DNA of 64,000 bases from the NCBI GenBank assembly GCA_018656065.1, contig JABHZY010000024.1, forward strand, positions 160,970 through 224,969, read 5' to 3'. The stretch comes from Candidatus Komeilibacteria bacterium (GTDB taxonomy: Bacteria > Patescibacteriota > Patescibacteriia > UBA1558 > GWA2-36-10). Shown here one piece after another: positions 3,274 to 51,129 of this stretch (positions are counted from its first letter, which is position 1; each line of letters starts with the position of its first letter). The translations under genes were made by a program, and so were the position numbers. Below the pieces are notes generated by a model. The model searched no databases, had not been told where the DNA came from, and saw only the letters and a list, made by a program, of their open reading frames with translations.

Positions 3274-3318
3274 TGGAGCCGTCACGCAGACTTGAACTGC
3301 GGACCCCTTCCTTACCAT
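3274..3318 (-). pseudogene. 3' half of a disrupted host tRNA-Thr(GGU) (attR side)
   Basis: The reverse complement reads ATGGTAA-GGAAG-GGGTC-CGCAG-TTCAAGT-CTGCG-TGACGGC-T-CCA. Its anticodon 3' stem and acceptor 3' strand are exactly complementary to the 5' half at 11332-11368. Confidence 0.8.
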
Positions 3319-3445: not shown

Positions 3446-4402
3446 CTATTCTATCAAATCATCAACTCGAATTAGCTCACAATCCCCCTTCATAACTCCT
3501 GTAGGTAAGGATCTTGTATATTTAGCCGTCATACGTGGGTCTTTATGTCCTAATAACTGCTGTAATTTATAATAATTATATTTACTAACATTCAAATAAT
3601 TAACAGCAAAAGTATGCCTAAATTGATGAAGGTGAAATTTCACACCTGATTTTTTAACAATTTGGTCTTTTGTATGCTTCAAGCCATAATTTGTAAATTT
3701 ACTTCCTCTACCAGAAACCCATAGATATTCTGATTTATCTTCTATTATTTTTCTTTCCTTCAAATAATCCCGTAAAGCTACTTTTAATTTATTATTTATG
3801 GGCACCACTCTTAATCGTCTAGACTTAGAAGTCTCTGGGTTTATAGTCAATTCATTATTATTAAAATCTAGACTATCTAATTTTAGACCTAATAATTCTC
3901 CTGATCTTATACCAGTATATAGAAAAGTATTAATTATGGCGAAGTTTCTTTTTCTAATAAAACTATTACGCCAATCTATATGAAAATTAATAGATGACAT
4001 AATACGCTCCACTTCTTTTTTTCTTAAATACTTCCTATCTTCATATTGAACTACTGGATATTCTAGCTCTTCGCTATCGAATGGATTAGAATCAATATGA
4101 TTATGAGCTTTTAACCATTTGAAGAAACGACTTAATCCACTCCAATGTGTTGCAACTGTACTTTTCTTAATACTTTTTACTACCTTATCCCGCCCTATAG
4201 TTCTTTCTCTTTTATCTAACCAACGAAAAAAATGATTAATCATCTTAGAATCTATCATTACTAATGTAATATCGGGGAAACACTGTATTAGTAGCTTAAA
4301 AGTAGTCTCATAGCCTTTTATAGTTGTTGGCGCTAACTTTTCCATATAAGTTAATTGATCTATAAATTCTTTATGTAAATTTACTAGTTTATTATTATCC
4401 AT
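3446..4402 (-). CDS. tyrosine recombinase / phage-type integrase
   Basis: 318 aa. It has a SAM-like N-terminal domain. The catalytic signature is TGIRSGELLGL ... HQFRHTFAVNYL ... LLGHKDPRMTAKYT (R..HxxR..Y). Confidence 0.85.
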   Translation of the reverse strand: MDNNKLVNLHKEFIDQLTYMEKLAPTTIKGYETTFKLLIQCFPDITLVMIDSKMINHFFRWLDKRERTIGRDKVVKSIKKSTVATHWSGLSRFFKWLKAHNHIDSNPFDSEELEYPVVQYEDRKYLRKKEVERIMSSINFHIDWRNSFIRKRNFAIINTFLYTGIRSGELLGLKLDSLDFNNNELTINPETSKSRRLRVVPINNKLKVALRDYLKERKIIEDKSEYLWVSGRGSKFTNYGLKHTKDQIVKKSGVKFHLHQFRHTFAVNYLNVSKYNYYKLQQLLGHKDPRMTAKYTRSLPTGVMKGDCELIRVDDLIE

Positions 4403-5175
4403 AATTATTTATTATATTATTAAAACCATGCTTATATGCATAGTTTCTAAATAAAAATACCGATACAGGTAAATAGTATAAAACTACGCATATAGCGTAT
4501 TCTATACTCCCTGTTCGGTTTCATTCTAACTAATAATCTTTTCCCCTTTTGGGTACTCCCAATTTAATTAGTTCTAACAAATGGGGGCCTTTAATTCCAT
4601 ATATTATGGATGCAAGTGGCCAAAAATATCACGAACACCAAGAGTGTTTATTCAATTGTATTAATTATACCATACATAAACATCTTTATGCAATTATGTA
4701 AGCATTTCATATAATTAAATTAGTAATCAATATAGTGTGTTAAATGTAATTCTATAAGTGTTATTTTGAATGCCATCTATAATATATATACCCCTCTGTA
4801 CACAAAACACTATGTATTTCCGTACAGTGTGTGAAACACTGAGTGCATGGGAGAGACTAACCCTCTGCCTCACAGACATGAATACAATAATAACGAGAAA
4901 GCGAGAAAAGGTAGTGGGGGTATCTGAGAATCGTGAACGTTTTATTATGACTTCACCCTCTATCATAAAAGTTAATATAATTTGAAAATACGGGCATTAT
5001 TTGCTACAATTGAGATACAATTTAATGGGCCTAAACTCTATATTTATAGAGCATGGCTTAAAATCATAACGCATATTGACCCCGTCATTCAGGGCATGCG
5101 TTATGTTATGCAGGGAAACTTGTATATAGGCTTAGGCCTTCCTGGTGGCGGGTTTTGTGTTATTAATAAAAAAAT

Positions 5176-5805
5176 ATGCCAGTATTTGATGCATCAGTTT
5201 TGAATCCAAAAATTAGAGAAATGCAAACCTATTATGATCCAGAAAGTGGTTGTCAGGTATATAATGATAGGCAGGCTTTTGAATCTTGTAAACAGACTTA
5301 TTATCTAAAAATACAAACTGAACAAAATAAAGAATATAATAACCCAATTGATAATTATGAAGTTGAAACACCCCATCAAAACCTTGAAGATATTAATTAT
5401 GAATTATTATCTATTAAAAAAGAAATAAATGATATTAAAACCGATACCTATAATAAAGGATCCGATTACTTAAATTTAACTTACTTCTTTGCCGGTATTT
5501 TATTAGTATTAATAGTATTTATTTTTATAAAACTATTTAGAAAATATAAAGTTAGAAAAAAAGATCATTTAATTGATAAAATTATAAAGAAACAAGAAAA
5601 AAAATGGTGGCAACTCAAATATATGAGTAAAAATGATTATGGTAAAATAGCTATAATTGGATTAGTCCTAGCTTTTATAAAAACTGGCATCCCTGTACCT
5701 CTAAACCCATTATTAAATTTCTTAGTGAATGTAATAATAACCTTTGGATTATTTGCTGGAATTATGTGGATTATAGAAAAAAGTAAAAGAAACAAAAAAG
5801 AATAA
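5176..5805 (+). CDS. hypothetical membrane protein (island cargo)
   Basis: 209-aa ORF with about 3 hydrophobic helices (FFAGILLVLIVFIFI, IAIIGLVLAFI, VIITFGLFAGIMWII). I recognise no family. Confidence 0.5.
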   Translation: MPVFDASVLNPKIREMQTYYDPESGCQVYNDRQAFESCKQTYYLKIQTEQNKEYNNPIDNYEVETPHQNLEDINYELLSIKKEINDIKTDTYNKGSDYLNLTYFFAGILLVLIVFIFIKLFRKYKVRKKDHLIDKIIKKQEKKWWQLKYMSKNDYGKIAIIGLVLAFIKTGIPVPLNPLLNFLVNVIITFGLFAGIMWIIEKSKRNKKE

Positions 5806-5816
5806 ATTATGTCTAT

Positions 5817-6338
5817 ATGATTATAGAAAATCAATTTATCATTCCTTTTGTTAAAGAAGTTAAGCTTCTAATGAAAGATAAGGAAAATGAATATTACAAA
5901 GATATACCAAAAATAATTATACTAATGACACTTTGGGGTAAAATGGGCTTACATAAAACAGTTAGACGTGTTCATATCGATGATTTTAATAATGATTTCT
6001 ATAATATATGTTATGAACTTACAAGATATGGTTTAACTATCGGCATATGTTTAATGAAAAAAGTTGATAAAAAAAATATAAAAATTATACCAACATGCTA
6101 TGGTATATCATCTCATATTGGCGTAAAAGAATTACCTCACTTCCCATCTATGATTGATAAAATAATTAATCTTGAAGTAGATAAGGTCACTAAAAAATAC
6201 TTTGATGAAAGTCCCCACCGCTATAAAGATTTTACACAAAACCTTATAAAAGAAAATATATTTAGATATTATACTAATAGAGCTTTCCAAATAGCTATAA
6301 ATTCTAATCTTTATGTCACTCTCCCAAAAACTAATTAA
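5817..6338 (+). CDS. hypothetical protein (island cargo)
   Basis: 173-aa ORF, co-directional with and 11 nt after the previous gene. I recognise no family. Confidence 0.45.
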   Translation: MIIENQFIIPFVKEVKLLMKDKENEYYKDIPKIIILMTLWGKMGLHKTVRRVHIDDFNNDFYNICYELTRYGLTIGICLMKKVDKKNIKIIPTCYGISSHIGVKELPHFPSMIDKIINLEVDKVTKKYFDESPHRYKDFTQNLIKENIFRYYTNRAFQIAINSNLYVTLPKTN

Positions 6339-6471
6339 AAAATATCAAAAACTTCATAAAAGAAAATTTGGTGAAAATATAAGTGAAGAAGAATCTGAAG
6401 AAGCATTGAATAATTTAGCTGATTTTTTTCAACTTTTGCTTGATGTAGATAAAAAGAATAATACGAAATAA
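6313..6471 (+). CDS. possible small acidic protein (52 aa), below the ORF-track cutoff
   Basis: My own translation gives MSLSQKLIKKYQKLHKRKFGENISEEESEEALNNLADFFQLLLDVDKKNNTK with a stop at 6469-6471. It overlaps the end of the previous ORF. Confidence 0.3.
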   Translation: MSLSQKLIKKYQKLHKRKFGENISEEESEEALNNLADFFQLLLDVDKKNNTK

Positions 6472-6498
6472 TAATTTAGAAAAAACGACTACTTATGC

Positions 6499-6527
6499 TT
6501 GATTTTATTAGCTTTTTATAGTATACT
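6499..6527 (+). promoter_or_regulatory. sigma70-type promoter of the RT leader
   Basis: TTGATT (6499-6504), a 17-nt spacer, then TATACT (6522-6527). Confidence 0.55.
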
Positions 6528-6533
6528 AGACGT

Positions 6534-6827
6534 ACTTATGGAGAATTGTTCATAAGGAATTATGTTGATAAGGTTCGTCAACTTTATGGCTATCGCCAAT
6601 ACCTGTATATATTCAGGTATGAGAATTAGCAATAAAGTGACTAGATGAACTATTAGATGCCTCAAGAGCTCAAGGAGCTTGGCTGATAATAAGGACTTTA
6701 TACCTCTAAACATAATATAACATAAGTTATATTCCTCCTGGCCGCGTCTAAGCGGTAAGTTACGTTTGGACCTTAATACCACACGAGAAGCCAGGATTCT
6801 CGGTATTAAGGCGTGTATCACAATAAA
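6534..6827 (+). ncRNA. structured ~290-nt leader / candidate RT-associated ncRNA
   Basis: No plausible sense ORF. Hairpins lie at 6535-6556 (cttatg/cataag) and 6599-6620 (atacctg/caggtat). A compound hairpin at 6771-6811 pairs ccttaatacc with ggtattaagg around an inner gagaa/ttctc stem. The leader looks more GC-rich than its flanks by eye. Confidence 0.5.
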
Positions 6828-8228
6828 ATGAATCTACAAAAACTCAAAAGAGAATGGTTGAAATTAGAAAATGATAAAGTACAAGAAAAAAGAAAATACA
6901 AACAATTCAACTATAGAGTAAAAAATATAAGTGAAAAATTGGCTCAAAAAATATGGGAACCAGCATTTGTTGCTGGTTATTCTTTTTATCCATTTATTAA
7001 ATACTATGACATACAACGAAAGTGTAAAAGAGACCCAAAAACTTCAAAAATATATATATCTAAAAAAGAAAGACCTATTTGTCTAACTGGTCATAAGGAA
7101 TCAATTATAGTTTCTTGGTACGCCCACTTACTGAGTCATATATATGAAATATGGATGAAAAAATATAACTTAGAAAATGAGGTGATAGCTTATAGAAGTA
7201 TAGAGGGTAAATCAAGTTATAATTTTGCATCTGATGTTTTTAATTTCTGTAAAAAACAAAAAGAATCTGTAATATTAACTTATGATATAAAAGGCTTTTT
7301 TGATAATCTAGATCATAAAATAATAAAAAAACTCTGGGTAAAATTATTAAAAGAGGTGGATATTGAAAATTCACACAATGGATTACCAAAAGATCATTAT
7401 GCTGTTTATAAATATATGACCTCATACTCTTTTGTAAATATAAATGATGTTTACAGTGCCTTGGGTTTGAAAAAGAAAGATCTAAGAGCTATGTTAAGAT
7501 TATGTTCTGAAGATGACTTCCATCAAAAGATCCAAAGAAAAGGAAAAGATAAAAGTTTAATACAATCAAATAAACCATCTTTAGGAAAAAGGGGTTTTGG
7601 TATTCCACAAGGAGCTGCAATTAGTGCTGTATTGTCCAATATGTATATGATAGACTTTGATCGTTTAGTATCTACTAATGTCAAGAAAATAGGAGGTTTA
7701 TATCGCAGATATAGCGATGATATTGTTGTAGTCGTACCTACAGAACACTACAAAAAAACTAACCAGTCTATAAATAATATTATCTCAAAAATTCTTTTAG
7801 AGCTTGAGCCTACTAAAACTACTATCACTAAAGTAAAGCTGAATAAAGATAATAATTGTAGTTGTTATGACCTAAATGGTAAAAATGTATCTGTGCCTTA
7901 CCTTGGTGTAGAATGGGATGGTAAAAAAATACTACTGCGTGGTAAAACTCTAGCAAGGTACCACAGGAGAATGTCTAAAGCTGTATATACTGTAGCTAAG
8001 AATGCACAGCTTAGAGGACAAAAATATATTCCTAAACGTCGTCTGTATGAAGCATTTACTGGCTATGGAAAGAGTAACTTTCAATCCTATGTATTGAGAG
8101 CGGGAAAAGGGATAAAGTCAAAAGAACTAATAAGACAAATCTCTAAACATAAAGCTATGCAACACCTAAAGAAGAAAATTAAAAAAACTATATCTAAATT
8201 AAAAAACGAACCAAAAAAATCATCTTGA
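6828..8228 (+). CDS. standalone reverse transcriptase (retron / Abi / DRT-UG-like, clade not assignable by eye)
   Basis: RT motifs occur in order: DIKGFFDNLDH, GIPQGAAISAVLSNMYM, YRRYSDDIVVVV (YxDD), LELEPTKTTITKV, VPYLGVEWDG. The track start at 6813 is a GTG; the ATG at 6828 (MNLQKLK) is more likely. Confidence 0.85.
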   Translation: MNLQKLKREWLKLENDKVQEKRKYKQFNYRVKNISEKLAQKIWEPAFVAGYSFYPFIKYYDIQRKCKRDPKTSKIYISKKERPICLTGHKESIIVSWYAHLLSHIYEIWMKKYNLENEVIAYRSIEGKSSYNFASDVFNFCKKQKESVILTYDIKGFFDNLDHKIIKKLWVKLLKEVDIENSHNGLPKDHYAVYKYMTSYSFVNINDVYSALGLKKKDLRAMLRLCSEDDFHQKIQRKGKDKSLIQSNKPSLGKRGFGIPQGAAISAVLSNMYMIDFDRLVSTNVKKIGGLYRRYSDDIVVVVPTEHYKKTNQSINNIISKILLELEPTKTTITKVKLNKDNNCSCYDLNGKNVSVPYLGVEWDGKKILLRGKTLARYHRRMSKAVYTVAKNAQLRGQKYIPKRRLYEAFTGYGKSNFQSYVLRAGKGIKSKELIRQISKHKAMQHLKKKIKKTISKLKNEPKKSS

Positions 8229-8246
8229 ACTAGATGATTTTTTTAT

Positions 8247-9452
8247 TTATTCTCTATTATAATTACCATCGTCATCAAAATTCAAAGATCTACTAATTCC
8301 ACTAGCATTCCATATAATATCAAATACTGATTGAAATTTTTCTGCCGGATTGAAATCTTCTCTATCTATAATAACTGCTGGCAATCTTAAATCATTAGTA
8401 ATTATAGGTAAAGCATCTCTAAAAGGAAAAGGACCCGGTATAGAGACCTTAAAACCCTTAATACCAAATAATGTTAAATAAACATAAAATGGTGGCTTAA
8501 AAGATAACTCCACTAAAAGTTCTACCATACTAGCAACATACTTCATAACACTTGACTCTAACCAAACCATTGGTATTATTGGAGTTGGTTCTCCTTCTGT
8601 TTCTCTAGCCATTAAACCAGAGGCCTCTACGGCCTCTATTTTCCCATCTCTGTATAACTGAGTATATGTTCGTATTGTATCATTATCGTCATTAGAAGCT
8701 GAGTAAGCCGCTACTCCTTCCATATTAATTCTATGACTCCAGCCAGAATTATAGAATGGCCTGAATTTATCGTTACCACCCTCACTTAAAGATAAAATAG
8801 TTGCATTACTTAATTTATGCTCTGTAGTAAAAGCAGATAATGGTAATATATGTATACTGAGAAAATTAGAATTATTTGAAATTATCAATGGTGTGTCGCT
8901 AGCTTGTATATCAAAAACTCTTTTATTTACAAACCCTTTAACATTATCAATCAAATTGCTAGTTTTTATAAACGAAGTTCTCAATTCACCGACGTCCATG
9001 GGATATTTACCATTTGAATTTCTTCTATAGAATTTATCATGGCTCTCAAGAGTAACTCTATGAGGCGCGTCTAAACTTGGATCTATCCTTATGACTAAAA
9101 TAAATTTATTATTATTGGCTATCACTCCTATATCATAATTCATTCTTGGTGCTATAGCTTGTCTCAATAAATTTTCTAATCTTGATTTTTCTGAATCAAT
9201 ATCACCAACCTCAAAACCAATATCTTCTGAAACTATTTCCTGTCCAATACTGCTTTCATCAACTCCAAAAATAATATAACCACCCTCTGTATTAGCAAAT
9301 GATGATACATCAGCTAAAAATTCTCTCTTATTACTATGAGATGTGCCAGGTAGTATAGCCTTAAATTCTAAGGTCTTTTTTTCTGTAACATTAGATTCGA
9401 CAATGGCTTTTATATCAGCCACTTCTATTTGATCAATGTTTTTATCTATCAT
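8247..9452 (-). CDS. Schlafen/AlbA_2-like (divergent AAA) domain protein with an unknown C-terminal domain
   Basis: 401 aa. The N-terminus KTLEFKAILPG...FLADVSSFANTEGGYIIFGVDE matches the AlbA_2 signature as I remember it. Confidence 0.6.
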   Translation of the reverse strand: MIDKNIDQIEVADIKAIVESNVTEKKTLEFKAILPGTSHSNKREFLADVSSFANTEGGYIIFGVDESSIGQEIVSEDIGFEVGDIDSEKSRLENLLRQAIAPRMNYDIGVIANNNKFILVIRIDPSLDAPHRVTLESHDKFYRRNSNGKYPMDVGELRTSFIKTSNLIDNVKGFVNKRVFDIQASDTPLIISNNSNFLSIHILPLSAFTTEHKLSNATILSLSEGGNDKFRPFYNSGWSHRINMEGVAAYSASNDDNDTIRTYTQLYRDGKIEAVEASGLMARETEGEPTPIIPMVWLESSVMKYVASMVELLVELSFKPPFYVYLTLFGIKGFKVSIPGPFPFRDALPIITNDLRLPAVIIDREDFNPAEKFQSVFDIIWNASGISRSLNFDDDGNYNRE

Positions 9453-9461
9453 AAGATTTAA

Positions 9462-10181
9462 TTAGCTTATTGAATCTATAATTCTAAGAAGTTGATTTGA
9501 TGTATGAATTATGTCAGCAGCTTCTTTCGGGTCAAGAAGTTCAACATCTCTATGACTTGATGGATTCTTAAATGTACCTATTGCACCAGTAAACAATTCC
9601 ATTCTAGCTACTTTTTCACCGGGAGCAGCCTCTTGATCTGTTAATATACCATCAGTTGGACTAAATGCTTTCCTCATTAAAGATACTCCAATGTCACTAT
9701 TACTTAAATTAGTTTTATTACGTACTCTTATCTCTACCTCCTTGAATGCTTGAAATATAGCCGTATCATAATCACCTCTAATAAAAGCTTGTTTAACTTT
9801 TCTTACCAAAATTGGGTCTAAACCATCCGAAGGTAAAAGCTCGCCTTTTCTATAGGTTTCAAAATCCTGAGAATCTAATATCTCCTGCCCTCTTGGTGTA
9901 ATGAAAGTCCAATCTATATTTCCAGGTTGTGGAGCTATAAATAATTCTCTTTCAAGCCATCGCCACGCTACTATAAATCTTTTTAAGATTTTTTCCCTAA
10001 GAAGATTATCCTGCCCTGCCCAACTAACAAAATTCTGATCTGTGCCAATAGTAAAATTATGCATATTAAAATTTTGCATACCTGAAACACTTAGATGCTT
10101 CAAAATAACAGGAGCTAACTCCTCTGGTTCCATATCTAATATAGTTTCTATAGGAGGATATATTTCTTCATAAATTGACAT
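9462..10181 (-). CDS. TIGR02391 (Hypoth_Ymh)-like protein
   Basis: 239 aa. The C-terminal half reads GDYDTAIFQAFKEVEIRVRN...LMRKAFSP...GEKVARMELFTGAIGTFKNPSSHRDVELLDPKEAADIIHTSNQLLRIID. This fits the family pattern as I remember it. Confidence 0.6.
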   Translation of the reverse strand: MSIYEEIYPPIETILDMEPEELAPVILKHLSVSGMQNFNMHNFTIGTDQNFVSWAGQDNLLREKILKRFIVAWRWLERELFIAPQPGNIDWTFITPRGQEILDSQDFETYRKGELLPSDGLDPILVRKVKQAFIRGDYDTAIFQAFKEVEIRVRNKTNLSNSDIGVSLMRKAFSPTDGILTDQEAAPGEKVARMELFTGAIGTFKNPSSHRDVELLDPKEAADIIHTSNQLLRIIDSIS

Positions 10182-10236: not shown

Positions 10237-11121
10237 TTATAGAGGATTTTTAATAATCTGCTGTCTTAAATGTTCGCTACTAGCTGCTAAATATATAGTA
10301 GTTGTCTTGATGTCGTTATGCCCCAAAATTCTAGATAAACTATAAATATCACATCCTCCTTCAAGCATAAGCGTAGCAAAAGTATGCCTAAGTCTATGAA
10401 CATTGAAACTAAGGCCCGAGACATCTTTTATCTTAGCAACCAAACGTCTCAGGCCTATTTCTTTGAAACCCATATTACGGTTAAGAGAAGTAAAAAATTC
10501 TGGACAAGTTTTATCTAATCTAGATCTTTCCTGGGAGTATTTTTGTAGTATTGAAACTAATTTATGATTAATTGGAATTATCCTATCTTTATTACCCTTG
10601 CCCTGTCTAACAAAAAGCGTTAAATTCTCTAAATCAATATCAGTATATTTAAGATTTAACAATTCTTTACGCCTAAGGCCCGTAAAAAGAAACGTGGCAA
10701 ATATAGCATGATTTCTATACCTAAGAAATTTGTACTTATATGGATAATTATAAACTACCTCTAATAACCTCTGAGATTCTTGTTTGGTTAATTTTGGTGG
10801 AAGTCTCTTCTCTATCTTAGGAGTCTCAATATCCTGAGCTAAATTAGCCTCCATATGCCCCTGCTCTACGCACCAACGGAAAAATACTACCAATGTCTTG
10901 TGATAGCATACAAACGTGTTAGACGACCAATTTTTAAGCGTACGACCATTAAAAAAGAAGCCCTTGGTATTCTCATCATTTATTTGATCTATATCCTCTA
11001 TCTCAGCATATTTAGTAAATAAAGATACTACGCGTCTATAGCGTTTAATAGTATCATCTGCATATCCTCTGATATATTGAGAATAATCACAAAACTCTTG
11101 AACAAGTAAGTTAATTTTCAT
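10237..11121 (-). CDS. tyrosine recombinase / integrase (XerC/D-like)
   Basis: 294 aa. The catalytic signature is TGLRRKELLNL ... HRLRHTFATLML ... LGHNDIKTTTIYL. It lies next to the island-borne tRNA and attL. Confidence 0.85.
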   Translation of the reverse strand: MKINLLVQEFCDYSQYIRGYADDTIKRYRRVVSLFTKYAEIEDIDQINDENTKGFFFNGRTLKNWSSNTFVCYHKTLVVFFRWCVEQGHMEANLAQDIETPKIEKRLPPKLTKQESQRLLEVVYNYPYKYKFLRYRNHAIFATFLFTGLRRKELLNLKYTDIDLENLTLFVRQGKGNKDRIIPINHKLVSILQKYSQERSRLDKTCPEFFTSLNRNMGFKEIGLRRLVAKIKDVSGLSFNVHRLRHTFATLMLEGGCDIYSLSRILGHNDIKTTTIYLAASSEHLRQQIIKNPL

Positions 11122-11155: not shown

Positions 11156-11231
11156 TGGAGCCGTCATGCGGACTCGAACCGCAGACCCCCACCTTACCAT
11201 GGTGGTGCTCTACCAACTGAGCTATAACGGC
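11156..11231 (-). tRNA. tRNA-Thr(GGU), island-borne intact copy
   Basis: The reverse complement folds by hand. Acceptor is GCCGUUA/UGACGGC. D arm is GCUC-AGUUGGUA-GAGC. Anticodon arm is CCACC-AUGGUAA-GGUGG. T arm is UGCGG-UUCGAGU-CCGCA. It ends UCCA. Confidence 0.85.
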
Positions 11232-29397: not shown

Positions 29398-29472
29398 TGG
29401 CTCCCCCAGTAGGACTCGAACCTACAACCTCTGCATTAACAGTGCAGCGTTCTACCATTGAACTACAGGGGA
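29398..29472 (-). tRNA. tRNA-Asn(GUU)
   Basis: Hand fold. Acceptor is UCCCCUG/UGGGGGA. Anticodon arm is CUGCA-CUGUUAA-UGCAG. T arm is GUAGG-UUCGAGU-CCUAC. It ends GCCA. It resembles E. coli tRNA-Asn. Confidence 0.85.
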
Positions 29473-36332: not shown

Positions 36333-36409
36333 GCGCCTATAGCTCAGCCTGGTAGAGCAGCTGCCTTTTAAGCAGACGGTCGGGGGTTCGAATCCCTCTG
36401 GGCGCACCA
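36333..36409 (+). tRNA. tRNA-Lys(UUU)
   Basis: Hand fold. Acceptor is GCGCCUA/UGGGCGC. The anticodon loop is CUUUUAA. T arm is GGGGG-UUCGAAU-CCCUC. It ends ACCA. Confidence 0.85.
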
Positions 36410-41040: not shown

Positions 41041-41115
41041 TGGTGACCCCACAGGGAATCGAACCCTGATTACCAGGTTGAGAACCTGGCGTCCTAACCG
41101 TTAGACGATGGGGCC
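41041..41115 (-). tRNA. tRNA-Glu(CUC)
   Basis: Hand fold. Acceptor is GGCCCCA/UGGGGUC. Anticodon arm is CCAGG-UUCUCAA-CCUGG. T arm is CAGGG-UUCGAUU-CCCUG. It ends ACCA. Confidence 0.85.
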
Positions 41116-50925: not shown

Positions 50926-51129
50926 ATTATTACTGTTTACTTATAGTCCCGAGCGAAGTCGAGGGATTAAAAAAATCTGCGTAAAATAGCGCAGACAGTT
51001 AAAAAACTTAGTTTTTCCACCTCGGTAGGATATTTAATTCTTGGCTAAAATTAGCTAGAAACCCACTGTCTTTGGCTATTTATATTTAATTTATGTGATT
51101 ATTATATAGCAAAAATTCAATATTGTCAA
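50926..51129 (-). promoter_or_regulatory. rplJL promoter plus a ~170-nt leader (possible L10-leader autoregulatory RNA)
   Basis: On the minus strand TTGACA (51124-51129), 17 nt, TATAAT (51101-51106). The long untranslated leader holds hairpins. Assignment to the L10 leader rests on position only. Confidence 0.45.

What the first reader, a model, noticed from the sequence alone, without database searches (positions are those of the whole stretch)
6499..8228. Standalone reverse transcriptase preceded by a promoter-defined, structured, ORF-less ~290-nt leader
The ORF has the full RT motif series: DIKGFFDNLDH, GIPQGAAISAVLSNMYM, YRRYSDDIVVVV, LELEPTKTT and YLGVEWDG. It also has an N-terminal extension of about 165 aa and a basic C-terminal tail. 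I saw no maturase/endonuclease domain and no fused effector domain.

A TTGATT-17-TATACT promoter (6499-6527) starts transcription about 290 nt before the ATG. That interval has no credible sense ORF. It contains several hairpins, including a compound 10+5-bp stem-loop (6771-6811) that ends 16 nt before the start codon.

An RT with an upstream structured ncRNA is the established architecture of retrons and of ncRNA-templated defence RTs such as the DRT2 type. The locus also sits in a mobile island next to other defence-flavoured genes. I cannot place the RT in a known clade from the sequence alone, so it may represent an undescribed RT-ncRNA system.
Basis: partly seen in the sequence, partly recalled or inferred. 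Interest (0 to 1): 0.8.

Follow-up and report, generated by a model that had tools for sequence, protein, structure and literature searches.

The report
DRT2 defence reverse transcriptase with template RNA
This is a DRT2-type antiviral reverse transcriptase and its upstream non-coding RNA, a known system that copies part of that RNA into a repeated DNA "gene" for a toxic protein, found here on a small mobile island of a Candidatus Komeilibacteria (candidate phyla radiation) genome, with an RNA version that the public RNA family library does not yet recognise.

Summary
A 466-aa reverse transcriptase (6828-8228, +) follows a roughly 295-nt structured leader with no sense-strand ORF.

It can: it is a DRT2 (UG2) enzyme. 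It scores E 1.7e-118 against PADLOC Drt2, and its best solved relatives are the Klebsiella DRT2 structures (E about 4e-60).

The leader is the DRT2 non-coding RNA:
- A covariance model built only from relatives finds 6733-6830 as the one significant hit in 64 kb (E 1.8e-5).
- It has a 5' hairpin, a stem closing the template, an 18-nt hairpin, a 41-nt "tower" hairpin, and a 6-bp pseudoknot. The pseudoknot is 98% paired across 23 loci, with compensatory changes in 4 of 6 pairs.

If 6568-6711 (144 nt) is copied head to tail:
- One endless frame results, encoding a 48-aa leucine-rich unit.
- The only sigma-70-like promoter spans the repeat junction (TTGACG-17-TATAAA).
- An in-frame ATG sits at the junction.

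Relatives keep the same logic.

Verdict: a new member of a known kind. The RNA scaffold is a variant that Rfam RT-12 does not detect. Repeat boundaries, cDNA synthesis and defence are inferred, not shown.

The parts
6499..6527 (+). Probable promoter of the ncRNA-RT transcript (TTGATT-17-TATACT). The inferred transcription start is about 6533-6535.
   Evidence: One search finds it as a 9/12 match, which is not above chance alone. A TTGAC-17-TATAAT-type promoter sits at the same position in most relatives whose sequence I read. Transcription was not measured.
6535..6556 (+). SL1, the 5' hairpin (CUUAUGGA / UUCAUAAG). It corresponds to the '5' handle' of the Klebsiella DRT2 ncRNA.
   Evidence: Predicted in the MFE fold. 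A hairpin with a different sequence sits at the same position in 23 related leaders, by inspection. I did not count covariation formally.
6559..6566 (+). SL2 left arm (AUUAUGUU). It closes the template region.
   Evidence: It is an 8-bp perfect complement of 6709-6716. The same arms occur in L081 and L002; L001 and L029 carry variant left arms (ATTACGTT, ATGACGTT) that pair with one or two mismatches.
6568..6711 (+). Inferred template of the ncRNA: 144 nt, containing two internal hairpins. The boundaries are inferred, not measured.
   Evidence: Four lines point to these boundaries: AUAA microhomology (6568-6571 and 6712-6715), a length divisible by 3, a 17-nt promoter spacer across the junction, and a single stop-free frame.
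6568..6713 (-). Predicted neo-like reading frame, antisense to the ncRNA. The 48-aa unit is MFRGIKSLLSAKLLELLRHLIVHLVTLLLILIPEYIQVLAIAIKLTNL. Its ATG is at 6713-6711.
   Evidence: In three concatenated units this frame has 0 stops, while the other five have 3-27. GRAVY is 1.33. Pfam finds no family. AlphaFold2 predicts an all-helical model at low confidence (pLDDT 68.7).
6576..6581 (-). -35-like element TTGACG on the cDNA-sense strand (CGUCAA in the ncRNA).
   Evidence: GTCAA is conserved at this place in most related leaders. It is read in frame as TTG-ACN in 20 of 22.
6697..6702 (-). -10-like element TATAAA on the cDNA-sense strand. It lies 17 nt from the -35 only after head-to-tail joining of 144-nt units.
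   Evidence: It belongs to the only promoter-like site in the concatemer, and there is none on the unjoined antisense strand. It lacks the conserved T at position 6.
6709..6716 (+). SL2 right arm (AACAUAAU). It contains ACA (6710-6712), and its complement holds the in-frame ATG.
6715..6732 (+). 18-nt hairpin (AUAUAAC-AUAA-GUUAUAU). By position and size it is the counterpart of the 'buttress' hairpin.
   Evidence: The buttress is described in PMC12039810.
6736..6741 (+). Pseudoknot 5' strand (UCCUGG).
   Evidence: It pairs with 6791-6796. RNAalifold found this helix on relatives alone. It is 97.8% paired in 23 loci, with compensatory changes in 4 of 6 pairs.
6742..6755 (+). Small hairpin directly after the pseudoknot strand (CCGC-GUCUAA-GCGG).
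   Evidence: By inspection, most of the 24 relatives have a hairpin of different sequence here.
6771..6811 (+). 41-nt 'tower' hairpin (10 + 5 bp). Its loop GCCAGGA carries the pseudoknot 3' strand (6791-6796).
6733..6830 (+). 3' scaffold domain of the ncRNA, as matched by a covariance model built from 12 relatives without the window.
   Evidence: 23.6 bits, E 1.8e-5. It is the only match below E = 0.05 in 64 kb on both strands.
6828..8228 (+). DRT2 (UG2) reverse transcriptase, 466 aa, catalytic motif YSDD.
8212..8245 (.). AT-rich hairpin (8219-8225 / 8232-8238) between an A-run and a T-run, overlapping the RT stop codon. It is probably a two-way terminator shared with the convergent gene.
   Evidence: Read from the sequence. 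It drew weak terminator-like Rfam matches.

Best explanation
The locus is a two-part DRT2 anti-phage system: one promoter, a roughly 295-nt non-coding RNA (about 6534-6827) and the reverse transcriptase (6828-8228).

By analogy with the Klebsiella system, the mechanism would run as follows. All of these steps are inferred here.
1. The RT binds the 5' hairpin and the 3' scaffold of its own leader (18-nt hairpin, pseudoknot, tower).
2. It copies the template enclosed by stem SL2.
3. [quoted passage not shown] This produces head-to-tail cDNA repeats of about 144 nt.
4. After phage infection the cDNA becomes double-stranded.
5. The repeat junction brings TTGACG and TATAAA 17 nt apart. The resulting transcript carries an endless frame of 48-aa, leucine-rich, helical units (a Neo-type protein) that stops cell growth.

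Shown here: the RT family, conservation and covariation of the RNA, the stop-free antisense frame, and the junction geometry.

Inferred: transcription, cDNA synthesis, the exact repeat boundaries, toxicity and defence.
For: **RT family**
- PADLOC Drt2 scores E 1.7e-118 (394.8 bits), against 84 bits for the next family.
- NCBIfam Drt2 scores 373.2 bits.
- The best PDB relatives are KpnDRT2 (9c0i, 9lje), E about 4e-60 over residues 21-440.
- Pfam finds only RVT_1.
- Many homologs are named Drt2 by NCBI.

**RNA**
- The leader folds with z = -5.24.
- Sequence blocks are conserved with eight relatives.
- A model built without the window hits 6733-6830 at E 1.8e-5, the only significant match in the window.
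- Over 100 sources (99 homolog loci plus the window), the model hits only directly upstream of RT genes: 22 loci plus the window.
- The pseudoknot is 100% paired on a plain MAFFT alignment. It is 97.8% paired on the model alignment, with 25 compensatory cells and 0 of 500 shuffles reaching that.

**neo logic**
- The antisense frame is open for 105 codons; 2 of 5000 shuffles reach this.
- In 22 of 24 related leaders the longest open frame of all six is antisense and covers the template. Combined shuffle p is 5e-6, not corrected for relatedness.
- The distance between the SL2 arms plus 1 is 144, 105, 105, 120 and 129, all divisible by 3.
- The conserved TTGAC is in frame in 20 of 22.
- Length differences between relatives are multiples of 3.
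- The concatemer has one stop-free frame, and its only promoter-like site spans the junction.

**Mechanism in the reference system:** PMC11100668 and PMC12039810.
Against: - **No experimental data.** There is no transcript, cDNA or phenotype data.
- **NCBIfam score.** It falls just under the curated cut-off (373.2 against 390).
- **ACA-1.** The conserved ACA-1 of the Klebsiella type is absent at the 5' template end (UGA/AUA instead). The jump site rests on a 4-nt AUAA match, and 147 nt is also possible.
- **-10 element.** The junction -10 (TATAAA) lacks the conserved final T.
- **Start codon.** The ATG lies inside the -35/-10 spacer rather than 13 nt after the -10, and I see no Shine-Dalgarno sequence before it.
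- **Open frame by chance.** For the 144-nt template alone, a fully open frame arises in 437 of 5000 shuffles.
- **Codon positions.** Substitutions between close relatives show no third-position excess.
- **Rfam.** RT-12, which detects the Klebsiella-type scaffold in L040 and L071, does not match this leader even at E = 10.
- **Relatives.** In some (for example L001 and L081) the junction promoter needs a different repeat length than the arm-distance rule gives.
Confidence: 0.85

Rival explanations
1. The RT is a DRT2-clade enzyme and the leader is its RNA partner, but this divergent lineage makes a different product, for example a non-coding or differently initiated cDNA. No translated neo gene is involved.
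For: - Tang et al. report that Neo annotation was harder in divergent DRT2 clades and suggest alternative mechanisms.
- ACA-1 is missing here.
- The ATG sits in the promoter spacer with no ribosome-binding site.
- The -10 is imperfect.
- There is no third-position bias.
- Rfam RT-12 does not match.
Against: - The antisense frame is open in 22 of 24 relatives despite very different template sequences and lengths.
- Arm distances and indels stay in multiples of 3.
- TTGAC keeps its reading phase in 20 of 22.
- An in-frame ATG sits at the same RNA landmark in the relatives whose frames I read.
Confidence: 0.1
2. The leader is an ordinary regulatory 5' UTR of the RT gene (an attenuator or translation control element). 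Alternatively, the 101-105-codon antisense frame is a conventional small gene on the minus strand.
For: - The tower hairpin ends 16 nt before the start codon.
- The ORF listing gives an antisense ORF at 6516-6821.
- In the window the open frame runs well beyond the template.
Against: - The scaffold elements match those that bind the RT in the solved DRT2 complex.
- There is no promoter-like site on the unjoined antisense strand.
- Pfam finds no family for the antisense product.
- In most relatives the open frame stops near the template ends.
Confidence: 0.03
3. The locus is a retron, a group II intron remnant, or another RT defence type such as DRT9/DRT10, Abi or a DGR.
For: All are RTs with nearby structured RNA. 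Weak profile matches exist: retron RT profiles at about E 1e-11, group II RT at 72.6 bits, Drt9 at E 8.6e-14.
Against: - These scores are about 100 orders of magnitude weaker than the Drt2 score.
- The group II RT model scores 72.6 bits against a cut-off of 300.
- No group II intron, retron or other RT-associated RNA family matches the window.
- There is no maturase or endonuclease domain and no neighbouring effector gene on the same strand.
Confidence: 0.02

Closest known systems
Klebsiella pneumoniae DRT2 (KpnDRT2; Tang et al. 2024, PMC11100668; Wilkinson et al. 2024, PMC12039810; PDB 9c0i)
   Same: - A single RT gene with no effector domain.
- An ncRNA of about 280-295 nt upstream on the same strand, apparently under one promoter.
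- A 5' hairpin, a template closed by a basal stem, an 18-nt hairpin, a tower hairpin and a pseudoknot that uses the tower loop.
- An antisense stop-free frame, a repeat length divisible by 3, and a -35 TTGAC near the 5' template end that meets a -10 only across the repeat junction.
- A predicted helical repeat protein with no known domain.
   Different: - The RT aligns over residues 21-440 but is distant: 207 bits against PDB, and relatives are 30-42% identical.
- The inferred repeat is 144 nt (48 aa), against 120 nt; published relatives are 111-129 nt.
- ACA-1 is not conserved.
- The ATG is the complement of the SL2 right arm and falls in the promoter spacer, not 13 nt after the -10.
- There is an extra small hairpin after the pseudoknot strand.
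- The tower is 41 nt, against 34 nt.
- The host is a candidate phyla radiation bacterium.
Rfam RT-12 RNA (RF03016)
   Same: It lies directly upstream of DRT2 RT genes. It matched L040 at 100 bits and L071 at 86 bits. By eye, the Klebsiella-type loci share a tower-loop core of the type GAUGCC...GUC and a pseudoknot that pairs ...GG with CC....
   Different: The window's leader, L001 and L029 do not reach the family's score, and the window has no RT-12 match even at E = 10. In the other direction, my model of the window-type scaffold hits none of the Klebsiella-type loci.
DRT9 and DRT10 (class 2 defence RTs with ncRNA templates) and telomerase
   Same: An RT bound to its own ncRNA that copies a defined internal template repeatedly.
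   Different: Those systems make homopolymers or short tandem repeats by protein priming, and DRT10 has a SLATT effector. The RT here matches Drt9 only at E 8.6e-14, and its template is about 144 nt and coding.
Retrons
   Same: An RT with an adjacent structured ncRNA template, used in phage defence.
   Different: Retron RT profiles match only at about E 1e-11. There is no effector gene and no retron RNA family match.

Membership tests
DRT2 (UG2) defence system | The RT belongs to the Drt2 clade by profile. | tested here: met
   PADLOC Drt2 models score 394.8 and 328.6 bits (E 1.7e-118 and 1.7e-98). The next family, UG39, scores 84 bits. The best PDB relatives are KpnDRT2 chains.
DRT2 (UG2) defence system | The RT reaches NCBIfam's curated cut-off for the Drt2 equivalog (NF041746). 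| tested here: not met
   It scores 373.2 bits against a cut-off of 390. It falls just short, which probably explains why NCBI calls the protein 'hypothetical'.
DRT2 (UG2) defence system | A single RT protein without an extra domain or a partner effector gene. | tested here: met
   Pfam finds RVT_1 only. The alignment to the Klebsiella RT covers residues 21-440. The downstream genes are convergent, and the upstream same-strand ORFs have no Pfam or PADLOC match.
DRT2 (UG2) defence system | A conserved ncRNA directly upstream on the same strand. | tested here: met
   A model built from 12 relatives hits 6733-6830 at E 1.8e-5. All 23 hits over 100 sources (99 homolog loci plus the window) end at or within about 12 nt of the RT start codon. 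Whether it is transcribed could not be tested.
DRT2 (UG2) defence system | A scaffold with a buttress hairpin, a tower hairpin and a pseudoknot. | tested here: met
   18-nt hairpin at 6715-6732 and tower at 6771-6811. The pseudoknot (6736-6741 with 6791-6796) is 97.8% paired, with compensatory changes in 4 of 6 pairs.
DRT2 (UG2) defence system | A template closed by stem SL2 and flanked by the two ACA trinucleotides used for template jumping. | tested here: inconclusive
   SL2 is present (6559-6566 with 6709-6716) and ACA-2 is present (6710-6712). The ACA-1 position reads UGA/AUA. AUAA at 6568-6571 and 6712-6715 could serve instead.
DRT2 (UG2) defence system | A repeat unit divisible by 3 with one stop-free frame antisense to the ncRNA. 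| tested here: met
   The inferred unit is 144 nt. One frame has 0 stops and the others have 3-27. Relatives give 105, 105, 120 and 129. This depends on inferred boundaries.
DRT2 (UG2) defence system | -35 and -10 elements brought to 17-bp spacing only across the repeat junction. | tested here: met
   TTGACG-17-TATAAA is the only promoter-like site in the concatemer, and there is none on the unjoined strand. Caveat: the -10 lacks the final T.
DRT2 (UG2) defence system | [quoted passage not shown] | tested here: not met
   The only ATG of the unit (6713-6711) lies in the -35/-10 spacer, with no Shine-Dalgarno sequence before it. Translation would have to start in the next repeat.
DRT2 (UG2) defence system | RT-dependent concatemeric cDNA, phage-triggered second strand, Neo protein, growth arrest and defence. 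| not testable with these tools
   These need RNA, DNA and protein measurements and phage assays.
Rfam RT-12 RNA (RF03016) | A match to the family's covariance model at its gathering score. | tested here: not met
   There is no match in the window at the gathering score or at E up to 10 over 6000-8600. The model does match the Klebsiella-type loci L040 and L071.
Retron | A retron-clade RT with msr/msd RNA and an effector. | tested here: not met
   Retron RT profiles match at about E 1e-11, against 1e-118 for Drt2. NCBIfam retron models score far below their cut-offs. No retron RNA family matches.
Group II intron | An intron-encoded RT with a maturase domain inside a group II ribozyme. | tested here: not met
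   TIGR04416 scores 72.6 bits against a cut-off of 300. No group II intron RNA matches the window. There is no maturase domain.

The most novel reading that the evidence does not exclude
This may be a distinct DRT2 lineage, found mostly in candidate phyla radiation bacteria, with its own RNA scaffold family that Rfam RT-12 does not detect. It would build a differently organised neo gene: a longer unit (about 144 nt, 48 aa) that is strongly hydrophobic and leucine-rich. Its only start codon is the complement of the SL2 right arm and lies inside the junction promoter's spacer. A transcript would then become translatable only from the second repeat onward, which would tie toxicity to concatemer length in a new way.
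Probability: 0.3. Interest if true: 0.45.

Novelty: new member of a known kind. Interest (0 to 1): 0.3.

Why it matters

- **Spread.** Finding the full anatomy (RT, scaffold RNA, endless antisense frame, junction promoter) in an ultra-small candidate phyla radiation bacterium, and in about 20 related loci, suggests the logic is kept far from the enterobacterial model.
- **Annotation gap.** It marks a group of loci that current annotation misses. NCBI calls the protein hypothetical, and Rfam has no match for the RNA.
- **Natural comparison.** The variant features (no ACA-1, ATG in the stem complement, 144-nt unit) offer a natural test of which parts of the template-jumping and expression logic are essential.
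- **Practical use.** The covariance model and landmarks given here could be used to annotate this RNA in metagenomes.

Tried and rejected
1. **Long-range helix 6528-6534 / 6761-6767.** The MFE fold predicts it, and L032, L085 and L003 have counterparts. I dropped it for the window because the 5' strand lies between the -10 and the likely transcription start.
2. **One universal rule for SL2 and repeat length across all 24 related leaders.** The stems sit in different registers in different subgroups. The arm-distance test is clean only for the five AACAUAAU-type loci, plus L171 by hand.
3. **Third-codon-position excess between close relatives.** There is no clear bias. The sequence gives no support for selection on the protein beyond keeping the frame open.
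4. **MAFFT alignments of the whole leader, the 5' block and SL1.** Registers were misaligned, so I did not count SL1, tower or small-hairpin covariation formally. On a plain alignment the tower stem was 68% paired, with register noise.
5. **A strict regular expression for the tower loop plus pseudoknot across all DRT2 loci.** It caught only 25 of 150, so it is not a usable family test.
6. **Close variants of the window's own locus.** Four other contigs carry an identical RT and an identical leader, so they add nothing.
7. **Pfam on the antisense product and on a three-unit Neo.** No family matched.
8. **Literature search for DRT2 in Patescibacteria.** No paper in the library joins the two terms.
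Full report
**1. What is in the sequence**

The ORF runs 6828-8228 on the + strand (ATG at 6828, 466 aa). Pfam finds only RVT_1.

The 6499-6527 promoter match is real but weak: 9 of 12 positions, in a region where such matches are as common as in shuffles. The leader has no sense-strand ORF. It folds far better than shuffles (-88.3 kcal/mol, z = -5.24). The 10+5-bp stem-loop at 6771-6811 ends 16 nt before the ATG, as described.

**2. Which RT it is**

The protein is not unplaceable.
- PADLOC's two Drt2 profiles score 394.8 and 328.6 bits (E 1.7e-118 and 1.7e-98). The next family scores 84 bits, and retron, Abi-like and group II profiles are about 100 orders of magnitude weaker.
- NCBIfam's Drt2 equivalog scores 373.2 bits, just under its 390-bit cut-off.
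- The best solved relatives are the Klebsiella pneumoniae DRT2 chains, at E about 4e-60 over residues 21-440. The "N-terminal extension" and "basic tail" are therefore normal DRT2 features.
- The identical protein is on record as a hypothetical protein of a Candidatus Komeilibacteria MAG. The nearest other homologs are only about 40% identical, and several are named Drt2.

**3. What is known about DRT2**

This section comes from PMC11100668 and PMC12039810.

The RT binds a roughly 280-nt ncRNA encoded just upstream. A template of about 120 nt is closed by a short stem and flanked by two ACA trinucleotides. The RT copies it again and again by template jumping.

After infection the concatemeric cDNA becomes double-stranded. 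The repeat junction brings a -35 and a -10 to 17-bp spacing. The transcript, antisense to the ncRNA, carries a stop-free "neo" frame whose product arrests growth.

The scaffold has a 5' hairpin, an 18-nt buttress, a 34-nt tower and a pseudoknot. Repeat lengths are multiples of 3.

**4. Is the leader that RNA?**

I fetched 160 homologous loci from genomes and metagenomes and 10 more by exact protein look-up. Each of the ten looked-up loci has a gap of roughly 130-820 nt (mostly 270-630 nt) without called genes upstream of the RT gene.

An alignment of the window's leader with eight relatives shows conserved blocks:
- the promoter;
- the first hairpin;
- AUUAnGUU, then GUCAAC;
- AACAUAAU;
- a tower hairpin with a GCCAGG loop;
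- GGGUGUG before the start codon.

RNAalifold, run on 12 relatives without the window, picked out a 6-bp helix between a UCCUGG-type strand and the tower loop. This is a pseudoknot.
- On a plain MAFFT alignment it is 100% paired in 14 sequences.
- On the model-based alignment of 23 loci it is 97.8% paired. Four of 6 pairs have compensatory changes, covering 25 cells. No shuffle out of 500 reaches this, and slid controls give 23-63% pairing.
- Six different strand pairs occur: CCUGG/CCAGG, UCUGG/CCAGA, CUCGG/CCGAG, CCCGG/CCGGG, UCCGG/CCGGA and CUUGG/CCAAG.

A covariance model built only from those 12 relatives finds 6733-6830 at E 1.8e-5. That is the single significant match in the 64-kb window. 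Over 100 sources (99 homolog loci plus the window), all 23 hits lie directly upstream of the RT gene and end at or within about 12 nt of its start codon.

In the window the parts are:

| Part | Coordinates |
|---|---|
| SL1 | 6535-6556 |
| SL2 | 6559-6566 with 6709-6716 |
| 18-nt hairpin | 6715-6732 |
| Pseudoknot | 6736-6741 with 6791-6796 |
| Small hairpin | 6742-6755 |
| Tower | 6771-6811 |

**5.

On the minus strand, one frame is stop-free from 6833 to 6519 (105 codons). The other five frames are full of stops. Two of 5000 dinucleotide shuffles reach this length.

In 22 of 24 related leaders the longest open frame of all six is antisense and covers the template. Per-locus shuffle tests are mostly modest. 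Combined they give p = 5e-6, not corrected for relatedness.

In the five loci that share the AACAUAAU right arm of SL2 (left arm AUUAUGUU, AUUACGUU or AUGACGUU), the arm distance plus 1 is 144, 105, 105, 120 and 129, all divisible by 3. The conserved GUCAA, whose complement is TTGAC, is read in frame as TTG-ACN in 20 of 22 loci. The GUU-to-GUCAA spacing is 7 or 10 nt in 20 of 23 loci and one nt longer in three. Length differences between relatives are multiples of 3, for example 132/135 and 108/111/114.

An in-frame ATG is the complement of the CAU in the SL2 right arm in the window and its four AACAUAAU-type relatives. It appears at the matching landmark in the other frames I read.

**6. The predicted repeat in the window**

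The 4-nt match AUAA occurs at 6568-6571 and 6712-6715. Joining 6568-6711 head to tail on that match gives a 144-nt unit.
- In three joined units, one frame has no stop and the others have 3-27.
- The only sigma-70-like site is TTGACG-17-TATAAA across the junction. The unjoined antisense strand has none.
- The unit encodes MFRGIKSLLSAKLLELLRHLIVHLVTLLLILIPEYIQVLAIAIKLTNL. It is 31% leucine with GRAVY 1.33.
- It has no Pfam family.
- AlphaFold2, run without an alignment, gives one long helix per unit at low confidence (pLDDT 68.7, pTM 0.35).

**7. What does not fit**

- ACA-1 is absent.
- The -10 lacks its final T.
- The ATG lies in the promoter spacer, not 13 nt after the -10, and has no Shine-Dalgarno sequence.
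- A 147-nt repeat is also compatible with the microhomology, but it would give a 20-nt spacer.
- In L001 and L081 the junction promoter fits 108 nt better than the 105 nt given by the arm rule. I worked this out by hand from the sequences.
- Substitutions between close relatives show no third-position excess.
- For the template alone, an open frame arises in 9% of shuffles.
- Rfam's RT-12 family matches the scaffold of Klebsiella-type loci (L040 at 100 bits, L071 at 86 bits). It does not match this leader, L001 or L029. My model, in turn, hits no Klebsiella-type locus. This is a divergent scaffold variant.

**8. Context**

The locus lies on an element of about 7.9 kb.
- It is bounded by a 45-nt direct repeat (3274-3318 and 11156-11200, 84% identical). 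The repeat is the 3' half of tRNA-Thr(GGU) at 11156-11231.
- Tyrosine integrases sit at 3446-4402 and 10237-11121.
- The convergent neighbours are a Schlafen AlbA_2 protein and a Hypoth_Ymh protein. PADLOC recognises none of the neighbours with confidence.
- Homologs elsewhere often sit beside restriction-modification or GmrSD genes.

**9. Verdict**

This is a DRT2 system: a new member of a known kind, from a candidate phyla radiation genome, with a variant scaffold RNA and an unusually long predicted repeat.

- The RT family and the conserved, covarying RNA are shown here.
- Rolling-circle reverse transcription, the 144-nt boundaries, Neo translation and defence are inferred from the reference system.
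- My confidence in the overall explanation is 0.85. I put about 0.5 on the exact 144-nt unit.
- Interest is moderate to low, because the mechanism is already described. The variant start-codon and promoter layout is the part worth an experiment.

Noticed in passing
window 5028-5140 (+): A LOOT RNA (Rfam RF03000) matches at 71.7 bits (gathering score 46.4). It lies inside the same mobile island, just upstream of an ORF of unknown function at 5176-5805.
   Followed up: no
window 3274-3318 and 11156-11231: A 45-nt direct repeat (84% identical) is the 3' half of tRNA-Thr(GGU). It bounds an element of about 7.9 kb that carries two tyrosine integrases (3446-4402 and 10237-11121, both on the minus strand) and the DRT2 locus.
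   Followed up: partly
window 8247-10181 (-): Two genes converge on the RT: a Schlafen AlbA_2 protein (401 aa) and a Hypoth_Ymh protein (239 aa). A Schlafen AlbA_2 plus HATPase_c_4 gene also neighbours the DRT2 homolog in L166. PADLOC gives only a weak PDC-S50 match.
   Followed up: partly
window 6519-6833 (-): The antisense open frame runs far beyond the inferred 144-nt template, over the whole leader up to the RT start. The same happens in L001 and L171 but not in most relatives. It may be chance; I have no explanation.
   Followed up: partly
L006 (contig DATGWK010000045.1): A DRT2 locus with the same ncRNA variant (68.3 bits to my model) sits in a MAG labelled Candidatus Nanoarchaeia. L002 is labelled Gammaproteobacteria but has a low-GC leader. 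These may reflect binning errors or transfer between hosts.
   Followed up: no
window 8212-8245: An AT-rich hairpin between an A-run and a T-run overlaps the RT stop codon. It is probably a two-way terminator. The terminator scan missed it because the stem has few G-C pairs.
   Followed up: no
L040 2850-2962 and L071 2770-2897: Rfam's RT-12 RNA matches directly upstream of the DRT2 RT match in these two Klebsiella-type loci. RT-12 therefore appears to be the 3' scaffold of that type of DRT2 ncRNA. I did not check whether Rfam or the DRT2 papers say so.
   Followed up: partly
window 6544-6560 and 7085-7101: A 17-nt near-repeat (AATTGTTCATAAGGAAT and AACTGGTCATAAGGAAT, 88% identical) links the 3' arm of SL1 with a stretch inside the RT coding sequence. 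It is probably chance in AT-rich DNA.
   Followed up: no
window 50959-51093 (-), 29401-29472, 36333-36406, 41044-41115: A ribosomal protein L10 leader and three further tRNA genes lie elsewhere in the window. These are ordinary chromosomal features.
   Followed up: no
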